DNA of 64,000 nucleotides, taken from the NCBI RefSeq assembly GCF_044324875.1, contig NZ_CP172185.1; one strand, written 5' to 3'. The position numbers and the translations under genes are program-made. Below the pieces are notes generated by a model that was given only the letters and a program-made list of their open reading frames with translations, ran no database searches and was not told the origin of the DNA. The DNA comes from Escherichia coli. Lineage in GTDB: Bacteria; Pseudomonadota; Gammaproteobacteria; Enterobacterales; Enterobacteriaceae. Positions 4,370 through 9,845 of the stretch are shown piece by piece. Position 1 is the first letter of the stretch. Each line of letters begins with the position of its first letter.

Positions 4370-4393
4370 TGTTGTCTCCTGACAGCGACAACA
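4370..4393. promoter_or_regulatory. Ogr/Delta-type late-promoter activator site (TGTTGTC-N10-GACAACA, containing TGT-N12-ACA)
   Basis: Perfect 7-bp inverted repeat with the P2 late-promoter TGT-N12-ACA geometry. Centred about 85 bp upstream of the FI ATG and about 77 bp upstream of the D ATG. Confidence 0.55.
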
Positions 4394-4457
4394 AAACAGC
4401 CATTCAACGCCGCTACGGTGCATGAAACCATTACAGAACGCACCAGGAGAGAACACC

Positions 4458-5549
4458 ATGAAAGAGCTGTCAGTTACCGTTCCGTCACCGGATATCGACA
4501 TCACCATCAACAACAACACACTGGCAAACCTCACAGAGCGACTCATGACGCTGACCCTGACGGATAACCGGGCCTTTGAGGCAGACCGCGTCACCCTCAC
4601 CCTTGACGATACGGACGGGCAGTTACAGTTGCCACCACGTGGCGCACGCCTGAGAGTGATGATTGGCTGGCGCGGGGAGGCGCTGGTTAACAAGGGTGTC
4701 TACATCGTTGATGAAGTGACGTGGGAAGGCCCGCCGGACAAACTGACCATCACCGCCAGCAGCGCCGATTTTCGCGAAGAGTTCAACGTGAAGCGTGAAG
4801 TCTCCTGGCACGACGTGACGGTAAAACAGGTTGTGTCAGCCATCGCGCACCGCTACGGCCTGAAAGCACAGATAAGCGATATCCTCATGGATATCGAAAT
4901 TGACCACGCAGACCAGACCGAAGAGAGTGATATATCCTTCCTGACCCGCATGGCTGAAATGCTGGGTGCGATTGCCACCGTAAAAAACGGCAGCCTGTTA
5001 TTCATTCTGCCGGGTGGCGGAACCGGGCCGGACGGAAAAGCCCTGCCTTCGTTCGCCATTACCCGCAGCAGCGGCGACAGTCACCGCTTTCGCATTGCTG
5101 ACCGTGATGCGTATACGGGGGTCCGGGCGCACTGGCTCGATCTGAAGTTCGGGCAAAAGAAAAAAGTGAACGTGAAGCGACGCAGGGAAGCCGGGAAACA
5201 GAAACAGGAGAAGAGCAGCAGCCGGGAAGGTGATTACATGGAAGGCGCGGAAGGTAACGTCTACGTTCTGCGCAGGACTTACCAGAATGAAGAAACCGCA
5301 CGACGTGCAGCAGCTGCAAAGTGGCAGGAACTACAGCGGGGCGCGGCATCATTCTCCATCACGCTGGCGCGCGGTCGTGCCGACCTGTACCCTGAAATGC
5401 ACGGCAGGGTAACAGGTTTTAAAAGCGAGGTGGACAATCAGGACTGGATTATTGCCAGGGTGGAGCACAGCATAGATGAAAGCGGCTTCACCACACAACT
5501 GGAGCTGGAAGCGAAAATCCCCGAATGGATAGCAGATTCAGGCGGATAA
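4458..5549 (+). CDS. P2-like tail protein D (gpD-like)
   Basis: Track ORF 4422..5549; the ATG at 4458 has an AGGAGA ribosome-binding site. Translation is gpD-like along its length (conserved SWHD, FLTR, DRxAYTGV, AKWxxLQRG, GFTTxLELE). Confidence 0.8.
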   Translation: MKELSVTVPSPDIDITINNNTLANLTERLMTLTLTDNRAFEADRVTLTLDDTDGQLQLPPRGARLRVMIGWRGEALVNKGVYIVDEVTWEGPPDKLTITASSADFREEFNVKREVSWHDVTVKQVVSAIAHRYGLKAQISDILMDIEIDHADQTEESDISFLTRMAEMLGAIATVKNGSLLFILPGGGTGPDGKALPSFAITRSSGDSHRFRIADRDAYTGVRAHWLDLKFGQKKKVNVKRRREAGKQKQEKSSSREGDYMEGAEGNVYVLRRTYQNEETARRAAAAKWQELQRGAASFSITLARGRADLYPEMHGRVTGFKSEVDNQDWIIARVEHSIDESGFTTQLELEAKIPEWIADSGG

Positions 5550-5592
5550 AATTAAAATGAGCCATCTCCACTCAGCCAGATAAGGAGAAGCC

Positions 5593-5844
5593 ATGTTCCG
5601 TTGTCCCCTGTGCGGTGCATCCGCACGTATCCGCACCAGTCGCAATGAAAATGATTCAGGCACAGTTCGCCTGAAGTACTACCAGTGCAATAACCTCGAA
5701 TGCGGGATCGGCTTTACCACACTGGAGGGTTTTAACAAATTCACATCAAAACGCGCCCCGTCGCCGCAGGGTACAGAGCGGATACCGTGGGAAGATTTTC
5801 CGGGATCTCACAGGGGGAATGCTCAGATGAATCTTGATATTTAA
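5593..5844 (+). CDS. ogr: Ogr-family zinc-finger late-gene transcription activator
   Basis: 83 aa. Begins MFRCPLCGASARIRTSRNE with CPLC...C(N)NLEC zinc-finger spacing. AAGGAGA ribosome-binding site. Confidence 0.85.
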   Translation: MFRCPLCGASARIRTSRNENDSGTVRLKYYQCNNLECGIGFTTLEGFNKFTSKRAPSPQGTERIPWEDFPGSHRGNAQMNLDI

Positions 5845-5990
5845 GAACAATAATCAGGTTGAGAGGACATCATAAGGCAAGTAGATTAACGGCAGATACT
5901 TTCCCGCAACCACGGGCAAGTATTTAATTATCCATGATGAAATATGACCTAAATTGTTTTTTGCCCGCCGGAAAGCGGGCATTTTTTTAT
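5845..5990 (+). repeat. Repeat unit A: sequence downstream of ogr ending in an intrinsic terminator (candidate phage right arm plus att core)
   Basis: Shares the core ggttgag...agtagattaac...ttatccatgat...gcccgcc-N-gcgggc-T7 with units B and C. Confidence 0.6.
5963..5988 (+). terminator. Intrinsic terminator, copy 1 (gcccgccggaaagcgggc + T7)
   Basis: GC stem-loop followed by a T-run on the plus strand. Confidence 0.75.
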
Positions 5991-6202
5991 TCTTTTGTGG
6001 TTATGGGGTCATCAGGAACCACGTGCAGATTATATTTTTGTTTTTTTGGCGTTCCTCCGGCAGCAACGAGTTCATCAATAAGACACTGACACGCCTGAAC
6101 ATCCCGGGCATGTCTTAGTTTCACCTTTATTGATTTAACCTTATCCTCACCGGAGGAGAAATGCAGTTCAATCTCAATATCGTTTCTTCGGAACAATCTC
6201 AT
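5987..6202 (-). CDS. Hypothetical small protein (71 aa) in an AT-rich islet
   Basis: ATG at 6202 preceded by a GGGGGG ribosome-binding site. AT-rich promoter-like sequence upstream, with TATAAT-like hexamers. No family recognised by eye. Confidence 0.45.
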   Translation of the reverse strand: MRLFRRNDIEIELHFSSGEDKVKSIKVKLRHARDVQACQCLIDELVAAGGTPKKQKYNLHVVPDDPITTKE

Positions 6203-6429
6203 ACGCCCCCCTGAATATATCAGAAATGCTAGTATCGAAAAATGAGAAAACAGTTAGACAGGAGAAACATATTAACACAAATCATTTATACCTATAGATG
6301 AAATTATAATTTCATTCATGAATATGATAGATAACTATATTGTGAACAAAATGAAAAATGGCTAAATTAAAAATGGGCATGGAGGAATGCCTCGTAATCA
6401 GTAATACATGATCCATACTTCCTTGTTTT

Positions 6430-6455
6430 GCCCGCCGGAAAGCGGGCATTTTTTT
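6430..6455 (+). terminator. Intrinsic terminator, copy 2 (hairpin identical to copy 1)
   Basis: gcccgccggaaagcgggc + T7. Together with copy 1 it forms a near-identical ~30-bp direct repeat flanking the AT-rich islet. Confidence 0.75.
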
Positions 6456-6657
6456 GGCGGTTACCATCGCCTCACCTTCCTGGTTCACACAAAGCAACCC
6501 TGATTTTCCATGAAAACTTCAGGGTTGAGCCAAAAGCACAAAGACAGTAGATTAACCAAGGGTACCCGCCACCTGCCAACAGGAACGGTATCCAGTACGT
6601 ATTAATGACTGACAATTCACATTGCTGTTTTGCCCGCCAGAAGGTGGGCATTTTTTT
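6456..6657 (+). repeat. Repeat unit B: paralogue of units A and C, ending in terminator copy 3
   Basis: Aligns by eye with unit C over about 200 bp. Contains a degenerate ogr 3'-end-like segment (ttcaca...gattttcc). Confidence 0.6.
6632..6657 (+). terminator. Intrinsic terminator, copy 3 (gcccgccagaaggtgggc + T7)
   Basis: GC stem-loop followed by a T-run. Confidence 0.7.
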
Positions 6658-6861
6658 GGCAGTTATCATGGACGCACCTTCATGACACATATTAAGCAGA
6701 CCTGATTTTTCCATGAAAAATTCATGGTTGAGACAAAAGCACAAAAACAGTAGATTAACCACGGGTGCCTGCCACCTGACAACAGGAAGGGGTGTCCATT
6801 ATCCATGATATACAAACGAAAAGTCTTGTCTTTTGCCCGCCGTTGCGCGGGCTTTTTTTTT
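6658..6861 (+). repeat. Repeat unit C: paralogue of units A and B, ending in terminator copy 4
   Basis: Same architecture as unit B. Confidence 0.6.
6835..6861 (+). terminator. Intrinsic terminator, copy 4 (gcccgccgttgcgcgggc + T9)
   Basis: GC stem-loop followed by a T-run. Confidence 0.7.
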
Positions 6862-6890
6862 GCCACCCTCACCAGTGAGGGTACCATCAT

Positions 6891-7112
6891 TCAGAGGCGC
6901 GTAAGCCACCCGGCGTTAACATCCTGCCCGTCAACCCTGACCGCAGAGTCTGAACGGCAGGCACCGGAAGCAGTACCAAAAACACCTCTGACAAGTTCCG
7001 CCACCTTCCCGATATCATCAGGCGCCACATTCCTCACCTCGACAGTGATCCGTGGCGTACCATCATCGTTAACAAGCGTGGCTTTAAGGCTGGTACGACG
7101 GGCAAATAACAT
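6891..7112 (-). CDS. Hypothetical small protein (73 aa)
   Basis: ATG at 7112 with an AGGGAGG ribosome-binding site about 9 nt upstream. GC-rich, between repeat unit C and the copA promoter. No family recognised. Confidence 0.45.
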   Translation of the reverse strand: MLFARRTSLKATLVNDDGTPRITVEVRNVAPDDIGKVAELVRGVFGTASGACRSDSAVRVDGQDVNAGWLTRL

Positions 7113-7172
7113 CAACACCCCCTCCCTTCGGTTCGTTGCACTGGCAGCACGATACCACCAGGAAAAAGAAAA

Positions 7173-7203
7173 GCCCACAACGTCAGGATTGCGGGCTTTT
7201 TTT
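7173..7203 (+). terminator. Intrinsic terminator, copy 5 (gcccacaacgtcaggattgcgggc + T7), related to copies 1-4
   Basis: Stem-loop followed by a T-run, directly upstream of the copA promoter. Confidence 0.65.
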
Positions 7204-7269
7204 CTTCAAAAATGGACACTACGTGGACACTGATTAAATAATCCTTTCTTAATCAGACTGTTAAAATGC

Positions 7270-7300
7270 TTGACCTTCCCCTTGCTGGAAGGTTTAACCT
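7270..7300 (+). promoter_or_regulatory. copA promoter with CueR (MerR-type) operator
   Basis: -35 TTGACC followed by the dyad CCTTCC-N7-GGAAGG within a long spacer, the known PcopA/CueR architecture. Confidence 0.8.
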
Positions 7301-7340
7301 TTATCACAGCCAGTCAAAACTGTCTTAAAAGGAGTGTTTT

Positions 7341-9845
7341 ATGTCACAAACTATCGACCTGACCCTGGACGGCCTGTCCTGCGGTCACTGCGTTAAACGC
7401 GTGAAAGAAAGTCTCGAACAGCGCCCGGATGTTGAGCAGGCGGATGTGTCTGTCACTGAAGCGCACGTTACCGGGACTGCCAGTGCAGAACAGCTGATCG
7501 AAACCATCAAACAAGCGGGTTATGACGCATCTGTAAGCCACCCAAAGGCTAAACCGCTGGCGGAGTCATCAATCCCGTCGGAAGCACTGACAGCGGTTTC
7601 TGAGGCGCTTCCGGCAGCGACCGCCGATGACGATGACAGCCAGCAGTTGCTGCTGAGCGGCATGAGCTGCGCCAGCTGTGTCACCCGCGTACAAAATGCG
7701 TTGCAAAGCGTACCGGGCGTCACTCAGGCACGGGTAAACCTGGCGGAGCGTACTGCGCTGGTGATGGGCAGTGCCTCCCCACAAGATTTAGTGCAGGCGG
7801 TGGAAAAAGCGGGCTACGGCGCGGAAGCGATTGAAGATGACGCTAAACGCCGCGAGCGCCAGCAGGAAACCGCCGTCGCTACGATGAAGCGCTTCCGCTG
7901 GCAGGCAATTGTCGCACTGGCGGTGGGTATCCCGGTGATGGTCTGGGGGATGATCGGCGATAACATGATGGTCACCGCTGACAACCGCAGCTTGTGGTTA
8001 GTTATCGGCCTGATAACCCTGGCAGTGATGGTTTTCGCCGGCGGCCATTTTTACCGTAGTGCATGGAAAAGCCTGCTGAACGGTGCAGCGACGATGGATA
8101 CGCTGGTGGCGCTGGGTACTGGCGTGGCGTGGCTCTATTCGATGAGCGTCAACCTGTGGCCGCAGTGGTTCCCGATGGAAGCGCGACATCTTTATTACGA
8201 AGCCAGCGCGATGATTATCGGTCTGATCAATCTCGGTCATATGCTGGAAGCGCGCGCACGTCAGCGTTCTTCAAAGGCGCTGGAGAAATTACTCGATTTA
8301 ACCCCACCGACGGCGCGCCTGGTCACCGACGAAGGTGAAAAAAGCGTGCCGCTGGCGGAAGTGCAGCCAGGTATGTTGCTGCGCCTGACGACCGGCGATC
8401 GCGTGCCGGTAGATGGCGAGATTACCCAGGGCGAAGCATGGCTGGATGAAGCGATGCTGACGGGCGAACCAATCCCGCAGCAAAAAGGCGAAGGCGATAG
8501 CGTCCATGCCGGGACAGTGGTACAGGACGGCAGTGTGCTGTTTCGTGCCAGTGCGGTCGGCAGCCATACTACGCTGTCACGAATCATTCGCATGGTGCGC
8601 CAGGCCCAGAGCAGCAAGCCTGAAATCGGCCAACTGGCGGATAAAATCTCCGCTGTGTTTGTGCCGGTGGTGGTAGTCATTGCGCTGATCAGTGCGGCAA
8701 TCTGGTATTTCTTTGGTCCGGCACCGCAGATTGTCTATACCCTGGTGATTGCCACCACGGTGCTGATTATCGCCTGTCCGTGTGCGCTGGGACTGGCGAC
8801 GCCGATGTCGATTATTTCGGGCGTCGGGCGGGCGGCTGAGTTTGGTGTGCTGGTGCGGGACGCCGACGCGCTGCAACGCGCCAGTACGCTCGACACCGTG
8901 GTGTTCGATAAAACCGGGACGCTGACCGAAGGGAAGCCGCAGGTTGTCGCAGTAAAAACATTTGCTGATGTTGATGAAGCGCAAGCATTGCGTCTGGCGG
9001 CGGCGCTGGAGCAAGGTTCCAGCCACCCGCTGGCACGGGCGATCCTCGATAAAGCAGGTGATATGCAGCTACCGCAGGTCAACGGTTTCCGCACATTGCG
9101 CGGGCTGGGTGTGAGCGGTGAAGCTGAAGGTCATGCGGTATTGCTGGGCAATCAGGCGCTGTTAAATGACCAGCAAGTTGATACTAAAGCGATTGAGGCA
9201 GATATTTCAGCTCAGGCATCGCAAGGTGCAACGCCTGTGCTGCTGGCGGTTGACGGGAAAGCGGTAGCCCTGCTGGCTGTACGCGATCCGTTGCGTAGTG
9301 ATAGCGTGGCGGCGCTGCAACGCCTGCATAAAGCGGGATATCGTCTGGTGATGTTGACCGGGGATAACCCAACCACCGCCAATGCGATCGCCAAAGAAGC
9401 AGGGATTGATGAGGTGATAGCCGGCGTGCTGCCGGACGGTAAAGCCGAAGCGATCAAACGTCTTCAAAGTGAAGGACGTCAGGTGGCAATGGTGGGCGAC
9501 GGCATTAACGATGCGCCAGCGCTGGCTCAGGCGGATGTCGGTATTGCGATGGGTGGCGGCAGTGATGTTGCCATTGAAACCGCGGCGATTACCCTGATGC
9601 GCCATAGCCTGATGGGTGTTGCAGATGCGCTCGCGATTTCCCGCGCAACGCTGCGCAATATGAAGCAGAACCTGCTCGGTGCGTTTATCTACAACAGCAT
9701 TGGTATTCCGGTCGCCGCCGGTATTTTGTGGCCGTTCACTGGAACACTGCTTAACCCGGTGGTTGCCGGAGCGGCAATGGCGCTCTCGTCGATTACCGTA
9801 GTGAGTAACGCCAACCGGTTACTGCGGTTTAAACCGAAAGAGTGA
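7341..9845 (+). CDS. copA: Cu(I)-translocating P-type ATPase
   Basis: 834 aa. Two N-terminal CxxC metal-binding domains, CPC motif, DKTGT phosphorylation site. Confidence 0.97.

What the first reader, a model, noticed from the sequence alone, without database searches (positions are those of the whole stretch)
5845..7215. Array of paralogous terminator-bearing units between ogr and the copA promoter: stacked prophage attR scars or an sRNA gene family
Three units (A 5845-5990, B 6456-6657, C 6658-6861) share a core (ggttgag...gcacaaa...agtagattaac...ttatccatgat...) and each ends in a related hairpin plus T-run (gcccgcc-N5/6-gcgggc + T7-9). A further copy of the hairpin lies at 6430-6455 and a related one at 7173-7203. 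All five face the same way as ogr. Units B and C also carry a degenerate ogr 3'-end-like stretch (ttcacacaaagcaac...gattttcc; compare ogr ...aaattcacatcaaaacgc...gaagattttcc). That suggests each unit is the fossil right end (ogr tail, right arm, att core) of an earlier P2-like integration at the same terminator-type att site. P2 itself integrates at the terminator of the cyaR sRNA, so there is precedent. The alternative is a tandem family of plus-strand sRNA genes that P2-like phages target. The 31-codon ORFs in B and C (MKTSGLSQKHK... and MKNSWLRQKHK...) differ at first and second codon positions as often as third, which argues against coding.
Basis: partly seen in the sequence, partly recalled or inferred. 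Interest (0 to 1): 0.75.

Follow-up and report, generated by a model that had tools for sequence, protein, structure and literature searches.

The report
Tandem small-RNA-like genes in a prophage
The repeats are not scars of old phage insertions: they are four short promoter-to-terminator units, probably small regulatory RNA genes, carried as cargo by an intact P2-like prophage inserted in the copA promoter.

Summary
Four near-identical intrinsic terminators (5962-5988, 6429-6455, 6631-6657, 6835-6861) each close a short plus-strand unit.

The main interpretation, stacked attR scars, does not hold.
- The prophage's real attachment core is CTTGACCTTCCCCTTGCTGG, inside the copA promoter. It is duplicated at attL and at window 7269-7288, so 5845-7268 lies inside the prophage.
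- The identical array travels with a related prophage that has a 44%-identical integrase and sits at the ihfA terminator.
- The array is found in only about 30 of 5,426 complete E. coli genomes. In every locus I inspected it follows this lineage's ogr.
- No unit contains a core-like sequence or integrase arm repeats. The 'ogr-tail-like' stretch is at chance level.

Each unit is a sigma-70-like promoter (TTGNGA-N17-TA[G/A]ATT) followed by a predicted 80-99 nt non-coding transcript. That transcript has a 5' stem-loop, about 35 nt of AU-rich single strand, a U tract, a GC hairpin and a U7-9 tail. The promoter hexamers and the 17-nt spacing are conserved between paralogues whose spacers have diverged.

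Best reading: a phage-borne family of Hfq-type sRNA genes expressed in the lysogen, targets unknown. There is no Rfam match, no compensatory covariation and no expression data. One unconfirmed lead is that unit C is complementary to the sid gene of satellite phage P4.

The parts
5593..5844 (+). ogr (late-gene activator), the last late gene of the P2-like prophage. The array begins 15 nt after its stop codon.
   Evidence: ORF; PHROG 603 transcriptional regulator, E = 4e-14; annotated Ogr/Delta-like zinc finger protein in the identical record.
5859..5887 (+). Unit A promoter-like site: TTGAGA, 17 nt, TAGATT.
5894..5988 (+). Predicted RNA A, about 95 nt. It has a 5' stem-loop at 5894-5925, a single-stranded AU-rich stretch that includes ATTATCCATGAT, a U6 tract, a hairpin at 5962-5981 and a U7 tail. 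The 5' end is inferred from the -10 position.
   Evidence: Fold -27.7 kcal/mol, z = -3.4; terminator.
5987..6202 (-). ORF71, an orphan 71-aa protein convergent with unit A. Its stop codon overlaps the T run of A's terminator.
   Evidence: WP_001236182.1. Homologues only in E. coli. PHROG 14142, E = 5e-12. No Pfam, NCBIfam or PADLOC match. AlphaFold2 pLDDT 76, no PDB fold match.
6298..6315 (.). Perfect 18-bp palindrome ATGAAATTATAATTTCAT between ORF71 and unit A'. The half-sites ATGAAA/TTTCAT are kept in two of three variant upstream sequences while the centre changes, which looks like an operator.
   Evidence: Sequence; variants (u8 and u14 read ATGAAATTGCAGTTTCAT; the right half-site is degraded in u10).
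6340..6368 (+). Unit A' promoter-like site: TTGTGA, 17 nt, TAAATT.
6375..6455 (+). Predicted RNA A', about 81 nt. It has a 5' hairpin GGGCATGGAGGAATGCC(T), a single strand ending ...CATGATCCATACTTCCTTGTTTT, a hairpin at 6429-6448 and a U7 tail.
6525..6553 (+). Unit B promoter-like site: TTGAGC, 17 nt, TAGATT.
6560..6657 (+). Predicted RNA B, about 98 nt. It has a 5' stem-loop at 6560-6593, a single strand containing TTCACATTGCTG, a hairpin at 6631-6650 and a U7 tail.
6728..6756 (+). Unit C promoter-like site: TTGAGA, 17 nt, TAGATT. The -10 hexamer and the first 9 transcribed bases (GGGTGCCT) resemble the hok mRNA promoter of related phages.
   Evidence: Alignment to hok loci scores 26-29 against 18 +/- 2.5, reached by 0-3 of 200 shuffles.
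6763..6861 (+). Predicted RNA C, about 99 nt. It has a 5' stem-loop at 6763-6797, a single strand containing ATTATCCATGAT, a hairpin at 6835-6852 and a U9 tail. In relatives a hok locus lies between this unit and the sequence that follows here (GCCACCCTCACCAGTGAGGG), so hok appears to have been lost by recombination between terminators.
   Evidence: comparison with L002.
6891..7112 (-). ORF73, an orphan 73-aa protein. It belongs to the att-proximal module that this prophage shares, at 88% identity, with the prophages next to serS and zapB.
   Evidence: (WP_029490443.1); no family match.
7169..7203 (.). Bidirectional GC hairpin flanked by an A run and a T run, between the cargo and the att arm. 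It is not a member of the unit-terminator family.
   Evidence: (I1).
7212..7230 (+). Two direct repeats, ATGGACAC and GTGGACAC, 11 bp apart. They are probably integrase arm-type binding sites of the P arm. A matching pair lies next to attL.
   Evidence: The function is inferred from my recollection of the P2 Int arm sites.
7269..7288 (+). attR core CTTGACCTTCCCCTTGCTGG, which is the -35 hexamer and the left half of the CueR operator of the copA promoter. This is the true right boundary of the prophage.
   Evidence: Duplicated at attL (L004 5379-5398), single in the empty site of strain SE11, and unique in the window at up to 3 mismatches.

Best explanation
Window 5845-7268 is the accessory ('moron') segment between ogr and attR of an intact P2-like prophage. 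The prophage is integrated into the copA promoter, between glsA and copA.

The segment carries four self-contained plus-strand transcription units, A, A', B and C. Each has:
- a sigma-70-type promoter, TTGNGA-17 nt-TA[G/A]ATT;
- an untranslated transcript of about 80-99 nt, made of a 5' stem-loop and about 35 nt of AU-rich single strand;
- an Hfq-type 3' module: a U-rich tract, a GC hairpin and a tail of 7-9 U.

The promoters carry no Ogr-type late-promoter motif, so the RNAs are most likely made in the lysogen. They probably act as trans-acting base-pairing sRNAs on host or competitor-phage mRNAs through their different single-stranded 'seed' stretches.

Related phages carry different assortments of the same promoter, 5'-hairpin, seed and terminator modules. 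This suggests the family diversifies by recombination at the conserved promoter and terminator sequences.

Shown: the prophage boundaries, the mobility of the array, the unit architecture, the conservation of the promoter and terminator, and the absence of coding signal. Inferred: transcription, the exact 5' ends, Hfq dependence, the trans-acting mechanism and the targets.
For: Location and mobility
- The 20-bp core is duplicated at attL and attR and is single in the empty site.
- The identical array is in a prophage at the ihfA terminator whose integrase is 44% identical.
- Arrays also lie in prophages next to serS and zapB.
- Unit A is found in 30 of 5,426 complete E. coli genomes at E <= 10 and in no others.

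Unit architecture
- In 12 loci (window, genomes, viral and metagenome contigs), every promoter-like site within the array is followed by a terminator whose start is 86-105 nt after the promoter's start. The two strictly alternate.
- TTGNGN-N17-TA[AG]ATT occurs only four times on both strands of the whole 64-kb window, all four in the array.
- Between deep paralogues the hexamers match 9-12 of 12, the spacer only 4-11 of 17, and the spacing is always 17.
- The terminator stem is kept while the loop varies: GGAAA, AGAAG, GTTGC, GAAGC, AAAGC, GGAGA.
- Predicted folds give a 5' hairpin, an open stretch and a terminator. z is -2.3 to -3.4 for A, A' and B.
- One-sided changes in the B/C hairpin keep it paired, A-U to G-U.
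- There is no TGT-N12-ACA late-promoter motif in the array. One sits upstream of gene D at 4373-4390.
- The plus-strand ORFs are not conserved.
- Unit C's -10 hexamer and first transcribed bases align with the hok mRNA promoter and 5' end, which supports the inferred start site.

Background knowledge
- From memory, a U-rich tract followed by a terminator hairpin and at least 7 U is the described Hfq-binding module (Otaka 2011; Ishikawa 2012).
- Prophage-encoded sRNAs are well documented in E. coli (PMC4104026, PMC5069750, PMC12803456).
Against: - There are no expression data.
- No Rfam family reaches its threshold. The best hits are RyhB at 24 bits against a gathering score of 55, and AgvB at 23 against 56.
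- No pair shows compensatory (both-sided) change, because the known variants are too few and too similar.
- Unit C's fold is no better than shuffles (z = -0.7).
- No convincing target turned up in the prophage, the window or the sodB leader.
- The -35 and -10 hexamers match consensus only 4-5 of 6.
- The lineage is rare and young, so conservation could partly reflect recent duplication and gene conversion rather than selection.
Confidence: 0.55

Rival explanations
1. The units are evolutionary debris. On this view they are internally deleted or recombined relics of hok/sok-type loci and similar cargo, which keep working promoters and terminators but make RNAs with no function.
For: - Unit C shares its -10 hexamer and first 9 transcribed bases with the hok mRNA promoter of L002 and phage P88.
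- The hok terminator in L002 (TTGCCCGCCATTGAGAGGGCTTTTTT) belongs to the same terminator family.
- In the window hok appears to have been deleted between two such terminators.
- Relatives P88 and Chuche have hok directly after ogr.
- The region is visibly mosaic.
Against: - Similarity to hok loci stops about 9 nt into the transcript. The 3' parts are not clearly alike: 6-52 of 300 shuffles reach unit C's score, and the B-type units are at chance.
- Units A and A' show no consistent hok similarity. One of their six comparisons stands out, A' against hok1 of L002 (score 25, reached by 0 of 200 shuffles).
- Four different bodies all keep an intact promoter, fixed spacing, a 5' hairpin and a strong terminator. 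Decay would not be expected to do this.
- The Rfam sok model hits nothing in the window.
Confidence: 0.2
2. Units A and C are cis-antisense partners of the convergent small genes ORF71 and ORF73. Neither gene has a terminator of its own, so their mRNAs would run into the units on the opposite strand and pair with the unit RNAs. This resembles the 3'-overlapping type I toxin-antitoxin pairs.
For: - ORF71's stop codon overlaps the T run of the unit that precedes it, both in the window and in the second copy in L002 and L003.
- On the minus strand the hairpin is not followed by a T run.
- ORF71 is always paired with a divergent A' unit across a conserved palindrome.
Against: - ORF71 and ORF73 are hydrophilic and match no toxin or defence family.
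- In L002 and L003 a hok locus separates unit C from ORF73, so that pairing is not conserved.
- Units A' and B have no convergent partner.
Confidence: 0.1
3. One reading: each unit is the fossil right end (ogr tail, arm, att core) of an earlier P2-like integration at the same terminator-type att site.
For: - Some relatives of this phage do use terminators as att cores. The ihfA terminator is a 25-bp core.
- L002 contains one internal fossil arm-repeat pair followed by a truncated second cargo copy, so right ends can stack.
Against: - The array lies between attL and attR of the current prophage.
- It moves unchanged to another att site with another integrase.
- The empty glsA-copA site holds none of it.
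- There is no core-like sequence and no tandem arm repeat in the window's array.
- The ogr-tail similarity is at chance level.
- There is no similarity to the right end of any sequenced phage in 50,697 records.
Confidence: 0.03
4. One reading: a resident bacterial tandem sRNA family that P2-like phages use as an integration target.
For: The units do look like sRNA genes.
Against: - Unit A is absent from 5,396 of 5,426 complete E. coli genomes even at E <= 10, and from the representative genomes of 100,044 species.
- It is always inside the prophage. The integration cores are the copA promoter or the ihfA terminator, not the units.
Confidence: 0.02

Closest known systems
Prophage-encoded Hfq-dependent sRNAs of E. 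coli: DicF (PMC5069750), the anti-sRNAs AgvB and AsxR (PMC4104026), the Pas sRNAs (bioRxiv 10.64898/2026.05.13.724894) and svsR (PMC12803456)
   Same: Short untranslated genes carried as prophage cargo. They have their own promoter and an intrinsic terminator with a poly-U tail, and are presumably expressed in the lysogen.
   Different: - Those are on lambdoid or Stx-type prophages. This array is in the ogr-attR segment of a P2-like phage.
- There is no sequence or covariance-model similarity (AgvB 18-23 bits against a gathering score of 56).
- Pas copies are dispersed, not tandem.
- Here four paralogues sit head to tail within 1 kb.
- Expression and targets are untested here.
Tandem paralogous sRNA pairs such as OmrA/OmrB and PrrF1/PrrF2 (from memory; cited as such in the Pas preprint)
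   Same: Adjacent, same-strand sRNA genes that arose by duplication. They share ends and differ in the middle.
   Different: Those are chromosomal and conserved across species, with known regulators and targets. These are phage-borne, restricted to about 0.5% of E. coli genomes, come in four copies, and share mainly promoter and terminator rather than seed.
hok/sok type I toxin-antitoxin loci in the ogr-att region of Xuanwuvirus phages (P88, Chuche) and of the L002 relative
   Same: The same genomic slot. Unit C shares the hok promoter's -10 hexamer and 5' GGGTGCCT, and the terminator is of the same family.
   Different: The window's units have no hok or mok ORF and no match to the sok model. 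The transcript is about 100 nt rather than about 400 nt.
P2 attR at the 3' end of the sRNA gene cyaR
   Same: A P2-family right end next to an sRNA-type terminator.
   Different: There the sRNA is a resident host gene that forms the att core. Here the sRNA-like units are phage DNA and the att core is a promoter element 400 bp further on.
SIB/QUAD and LDR repeats (sib/ibs and ldr/rdl type I toxin-antitoxin repeats of E. coli; from memory)
   Same: Tandem repeats of about 150-500 bp that each encode a small RNA.
   Different: Those carry a hydrophobic toxin ORF on the opposite strand. Here the minus-strand frame has no conserved start codon (it is present in C, absent in B) and no clear membrane helix.

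Membership tests
Stacked prophage attR scars | The units lie outside the boundaries of the current prophage, on the bacterial side of attR. | tested here: not met
   The att core is duplicated at L004 5379-5398 and at window 7269-7288. The array at 5845-6861 lies between them.
Stacked prophage attR scars | Each unit carries a copy of an att core, with integrase arm-type repeats next to it. | tested here: not met
   The core is unique in the window at up to 3 mismatches. Tandem [AG]TGG[AT]C[AT][CT] repeats occur only at 7212-7230.
Stacked prophage attR scars | Each unit keeps a recognisable piece of the ogr 3' end or right arm of a phage. | tested here: not met
   Alignment to the ogr 3' end is at chance level. 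No phage record matches beyond ogr itself.
Resident bacterial sRNA locus used as attB | Present at the same chromosomal site in strains that lack the prophage. | tested here: not met
   The empty glsA-copA site of SE11 has none of it. Unit A matches only 30 of 5,426 genomes at E <= 10, and ogr precedes it in each locus inspected.
Hfq-type base-pairing sRNA gene | An intrinsic terminator with a 3' tail of at least 7 U, preceded by a U-rich tract (the Hfq-binding module). | tested here: met
   All four units have TTTT(TT) before the hairpin and a T7-T9 run after it. The criterion itself is from memory of the literature.
Hfq-type base-pairing sRNA gene | Its own promoter and a short non-coding transcript. 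| tested here: met
   Met by sequence only, not by expression. A promoter-like site with conserved hexamers and fixed 17-nt spacing precedes every terminator. The ORFs are not conserved.
Hfq-type base-pairing sRNA gene | A conserved secondary structure supported by covariation. | tested here: inconclusive
   The structure is conserved and one-sided changes keep it paired, but 0 of 19 and 0 of 13 pairs show compensatory change.
Hfq-type base-pairing sRNA gene | The transcript is detected, binds Hfq and regulates targets by base pairing. | not testable with these tools
   No transcriptome or interaction data are available. In-silico target scans were not significant.
RyhB (RF00057) and AgvB (RF02702) | A covariance-model score at or above the family's gathering threshold. 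| tested here: not met
   The best RyhB hit is 24.4 bits against 55 and the best AgvB hit is 23.2 against 56. Both hits rest mainly on the terminator.
hok/sok type I toxin-antitoxin locus | A hok toxin ORF with a mok/sok leader (Rfam RF01794). | tested here: not met
   There is no sok-model hit in window 5400-7500 at E <= 1, whereas L002 gives two hits at E = 1e-8. There is no Hok-like ORF.

The most novel reading that the evidence does not exclude
The array may be a helper-phage counter-measure against its satellite.

Predicted RNA C has two stretches that pair with adjacent positions on the sense strand of the P4 sid gene, which determines capsid size:
- window 6765-6777 pairs perfectly with P4 10226-10238 (13 nt);
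- window 6797-6807 pairs 10 of 11 with the directly adjacent P4 10215-10225.

The site is unchanged in 49 of 53 P4-like sid genes. The motif ATCCATGAT, which forms the second block, is the only body motif shared by units A, A' and C.

If real, a P2-like phage would carry a shuffleable set of antisense sRNAs that silence satellite or competitor genes. On this reading the conserved promoter and terminator scaffolds would act as recombination points for exchanging seeds.
Probability: 0.1. Interest if true: 0.8.

Novelty: new member of a known kind. Interest (0 to 1): 0.42.

Why it matters
If the units are transcribed, this is a compact family of four tandem sRNA genes riding in the ogr-att cargo slot of a P2-like phage. 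That slot is known for toxins and toxin-antitoxin loci, but I found no report of sRNA arrays there.

The family would add a P2-type example to the mostly lambdoid catalogue of prophage sRNAs. It would also offer a natural case of sRNA diversification by module exchange.

The array spreads with the phage to at least four chromosomal sites, mostly in poultry-associated E. coli.

Separately, the analysis corrects the map of this locus. The prophage ends inside the copA promoter, not at the terminators.

Tried and rejected
- Rfam at permissive thresholds on the window and on the larger array of L002: only sub-threshold, terminator-driven hits. The exception was sok in L002's hok loci.
- RyhB mimicry. 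B-type variants share CTCACATTGCT and TCCAGTAT with RyhB. The covariance-model score is 24 against 55, and predicted pairing with the sodB leader is no better than shuffles (-15.4 against -12.7 +/- 3.1, 37 of 200). I treat it as chance.
- Targets inside the prophage or the window: no complement of 13 nt or more, and no start-region duplex beyond shuffled seeds.
- 'Mini-hok' origin of the whole unit: only the promoter and first transcribed bases (+1 region) are significantly alike, and the 3' parts are not clearly alike.
- Ogr-dependent late promoters: there is no TGT-N12-ACA motif in the array.
- Coding potential of the 31-codon plus-strand ORFs and of the minus-strand frame: not conserved.
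- ORF71 function: no Pfam, NCBIfam or PADLOC match, homologues only in E. coli, and a moderate AlphaFold2 model with no PDB fold match.
- ORF71 and ORF73 as paralogues: only a 21-residue match at E = 0.009 in a single comparison. Not convincing.
- Wider homologues: the scan of representative genomes gave five chance hits. Metagenome and viral-contig scans gave only the same unit variants.
- Literal sequence search of the literature: no paper holds the terminator sequence.
- A sliding RNAduplex scan of P4 did not discriminate, and its null run timed out.
Full report
**What is in the sequence**

The window is E. coli DNA. P2-type tail genes, gene D (4422-5549) and ogr (5593-5844) are followed by about 1.4 kb without long ORFs, and then by copA (7341-9845).

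- A 30-nt terminator family, TTTTGCCCGCCGGAAAGCGGGCATTTTTTT, occurs at 5959-5988, 6426-6455, 6628-6657 and 6831-6860, 83-100% identical. All four are called as plus-strand intrinsic terminators.
- Units B and C are 80-89% identical over their length.
- Unit A shares with B and C only GGTTGAG-N16-AGTAGATTAAC, the 12-mer ATTATCCATGAT (with C) and the terminator. Outside the hairpin this is weak but above chance, reached by 1 of 500 shuffles.
- The hairpin at 7169-7203 is a different, bidirectional structure.
- The supposed ogr-tail remnant in B and C is at chance level.

**Where the prophage ends**

- Nearly all of 5,426 complete E. coli genomes share with this region only window 7269-7340, the copA promoter. 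Five carry the whole segment.
- In the identical record NZ_CP158311.1 the prophage runs from an integrase next to glsA to ogr.
- The 20-bp sequence CTTGACCTTCCCCTTGCTGG is present at the glsA-side junction and at window 7269-7288.
- The uninterrupted glsA-copA spacer of strain SE11 has it once, and it is unique in the window.
- This sequence is the -35 hexamer and the left half of the CueR operator of the copA promoter. That assignment is from my knowledge of PcopA. The promoter is rebuilt intact at attR.
- Two direct repeats 11 bp apart (ATGGACAC and GTGGACAC, 7212-7230) have a counterpart beside attL. They look like integrase arm sites. No such pair lies inside the array.

Everything from 5845 to 7268 is therefore prophage DNA.

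**The array moves with the phage**

- Window 5845-6860 is 100% identical in a prophage inserted between ihfA and btuC. There the duplicated core is the ihfA terminator (25 bp), hicAB lies between unit C and attR, and the integrase is only 44% identical.
- Related, longer arrays sit in prophages next to serS and zapB.
- Unit A is found in 30 of 5,426 genomes even at E <= 10, with ogr directly upstream in each locus inspected.
- No phage record matches beyond ogr, and no species-representative genome matches.
- Metagenome and viral contigs hold only the same variants.

This excludes both in-situ scars and a resident bacterial sRNA locus.

One relative (L002) does contain an internal fossil arm-repeat pair followed by a truncated second cargo copy. 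Stacking of right ends happens in this lineage, but not in the window.

**Anatomy of a unit**

- In every locus the array is a strict alternation of a promoter-like site, TTGNGA-17 nt-TA[G/A]ATT, and a terminator whose start is 86-105 nt after the promoter's start.
- The promoter pattern occurs four times in the whole 64-kb window, all in the array.
- Between deep paralogues the hexamers match 9-12 of 12, the spacer 4-11 of 17, and the spacing is always 17.
- The predicted transcripts are A 5894-5988, A' 6375-6455, B 6560-6657 and C 6763-6861. Each folds into a 5' stem-loop, about 35 nt of open AU-rich sequence, a U tract, the GC hairpin and U7-9.
- There is no Ogr-type TGT-N12-ACA motif in the array, so the promoters look constitutive rather than late.
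- The 31-codon ORFs vary in length and change most at codon positions 1 and 2.
- Variants show module exchange: the same 5' hairpin occurs with two different seeds, and the same seed occurs with different promoter spacers or terminator loops.

**Limits of the evidence**

- No Rfam family reaches its threshold.
- Alignment folding finds conserved structure but no compensatory pair.
- Unit C's fold is no better than shuffles.
- No target stands out in the prophage, the window or the sodB leader.
- Unit C's -10 hexamer and first nine transcribed bases match the hok mRNA promoter of relatives, and hok's terminator is of the same family.
- The units may therefore descend from hok-type cargo. The rest of the unit is not clearly hok-like.
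- In the window a hok locus seems to have been lost between unit C's terminator and the hok terminator.

**Most likely function**

My best reading is a phage-borne family of Hfq-type small RNAs expressed in the lysogen (confidence about 0.55).

The main rival is that these are non-functional relics of recombining cargo (0.2). A cis-antisense role towards the convergent orphan genes ORF71 and ORF73 is possible for units A and C (0.1).

**An unconfirmed lead**

RNA C is complementary to the sense strand of the P4 sid gene in two adjacent blocks, 13 of 13 and 10 of 11.
- A complement of 13 nt or more anywhere in P4 arises in 7 of 500 shuffles. The adjacent second block arises in 137 of 100,000.
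- That gives roughly 1e-3 after allowing for everything I compared, but I noticed the second block post hoc.
- The site is unchanged in 49 of 53 P4-like sid genes.

Against it:
- the conserved 12-mer pairs with one mismatch;
- a C-type variant with a different 5' arm lacks the 13-mer;
- B-type units do not match.

**Comparison and verdict**

The closest known things are the prophage-encoded sRNAs of E. coli: DicF, AgvB/AsxR, the Pas sRNAs and svsR (PMC5069750, PMC4104026, bioRxiv 10.64898/2026.05.13.724894, PMC12803456). Tandem sRNA paralogues such as OmrA/B are also close.

This array differs in its phage type, its genomic slot, its four-fold tandem arrangement and its lack of any sequence relationship to those families. 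I class it as a new, still unverified, member of a known kind.

Noticed in passing
window 7269-7288; L004 5379-5398: The prophage integrates into the copA promoter itself. The 20-bp core is the -35 hexamer plus half of the CueR operator. The promoter is rebuilt at attR, but everything upstream of -35 is now phage DNA. A truncated promoter copy is left at attL, facing the 3' end of int.
   Followed up: yes
window 6298-6315: A perfect 18-bp palindrome, ATGAAATTATAATTTCAT, lies between ORF71 and unit A'. In two of three variant upstream sequences the half-sites are kept while the centre changes, which suggests an operator for a small regulator, perhaps ORF71 itself.
   Followed up: partly
window 6504-6530 and 6706-6733: A near-palindrome, CCCTGATTTTCCATGAAAACTTCAGGG, abuts the -35 hexamer of units B and C and is conserved in all B/C-type variants. 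It may be a regulator binding site.
   Followed up: no
window 6835-6880 compared with L002 7328-7375: The sequence after unit C's terminator (GCCACCCTCACCAGTGAGGG) follows the hok terminator in relatives. A hok/sok locus therefore seems to have been deleted here by recombination between two terminators of the same family.
   Followed up: partly
L002 5380-5520: The prophage next to serS has an internal hairpin and a tandem arm-repeat pair (GTGGTCAC and GTGGACAT), followed by a 5'-truncated ORF71 copy and a second cargo set. This is a real case of stacked right ends. It has two hok loci (Rfam sok model, E = 1e-8).
   Followed up: partly
window 4373-4390: TGTCTCCTGACAGCGACA (TGT-N12-ACA) lies 32 nt upstream of gene D. 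This is the expected Ogr-dependent late-promoter element, and it is the only such site in the prophage part of the window.
   Followed up: no
L001 7015-7615: In the prophage at ihfA, a hicAB toxin-antitoxin pair takes the place that ORF73 holds in the window. The att-proximal cargo therefore changes together with the integrase module, while the sRNA-like array stays the same.
   Followed up: partly
L002 5977-6030 (B-type variant); window 6611-6627: B-type units carry CTCACATTGCT (TTCACATTGCT in the window), identical to the core of RyhB, and also TCCAGTAT. The covariance-model score and the sodB pairing test do not support mimicry.
   Followed up: yes
(hosts of the genomes that carry the array): Most array-bearing genomes come from chickens or chicken meat, and several carry two such prophages at different sites.
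   Followed up: no
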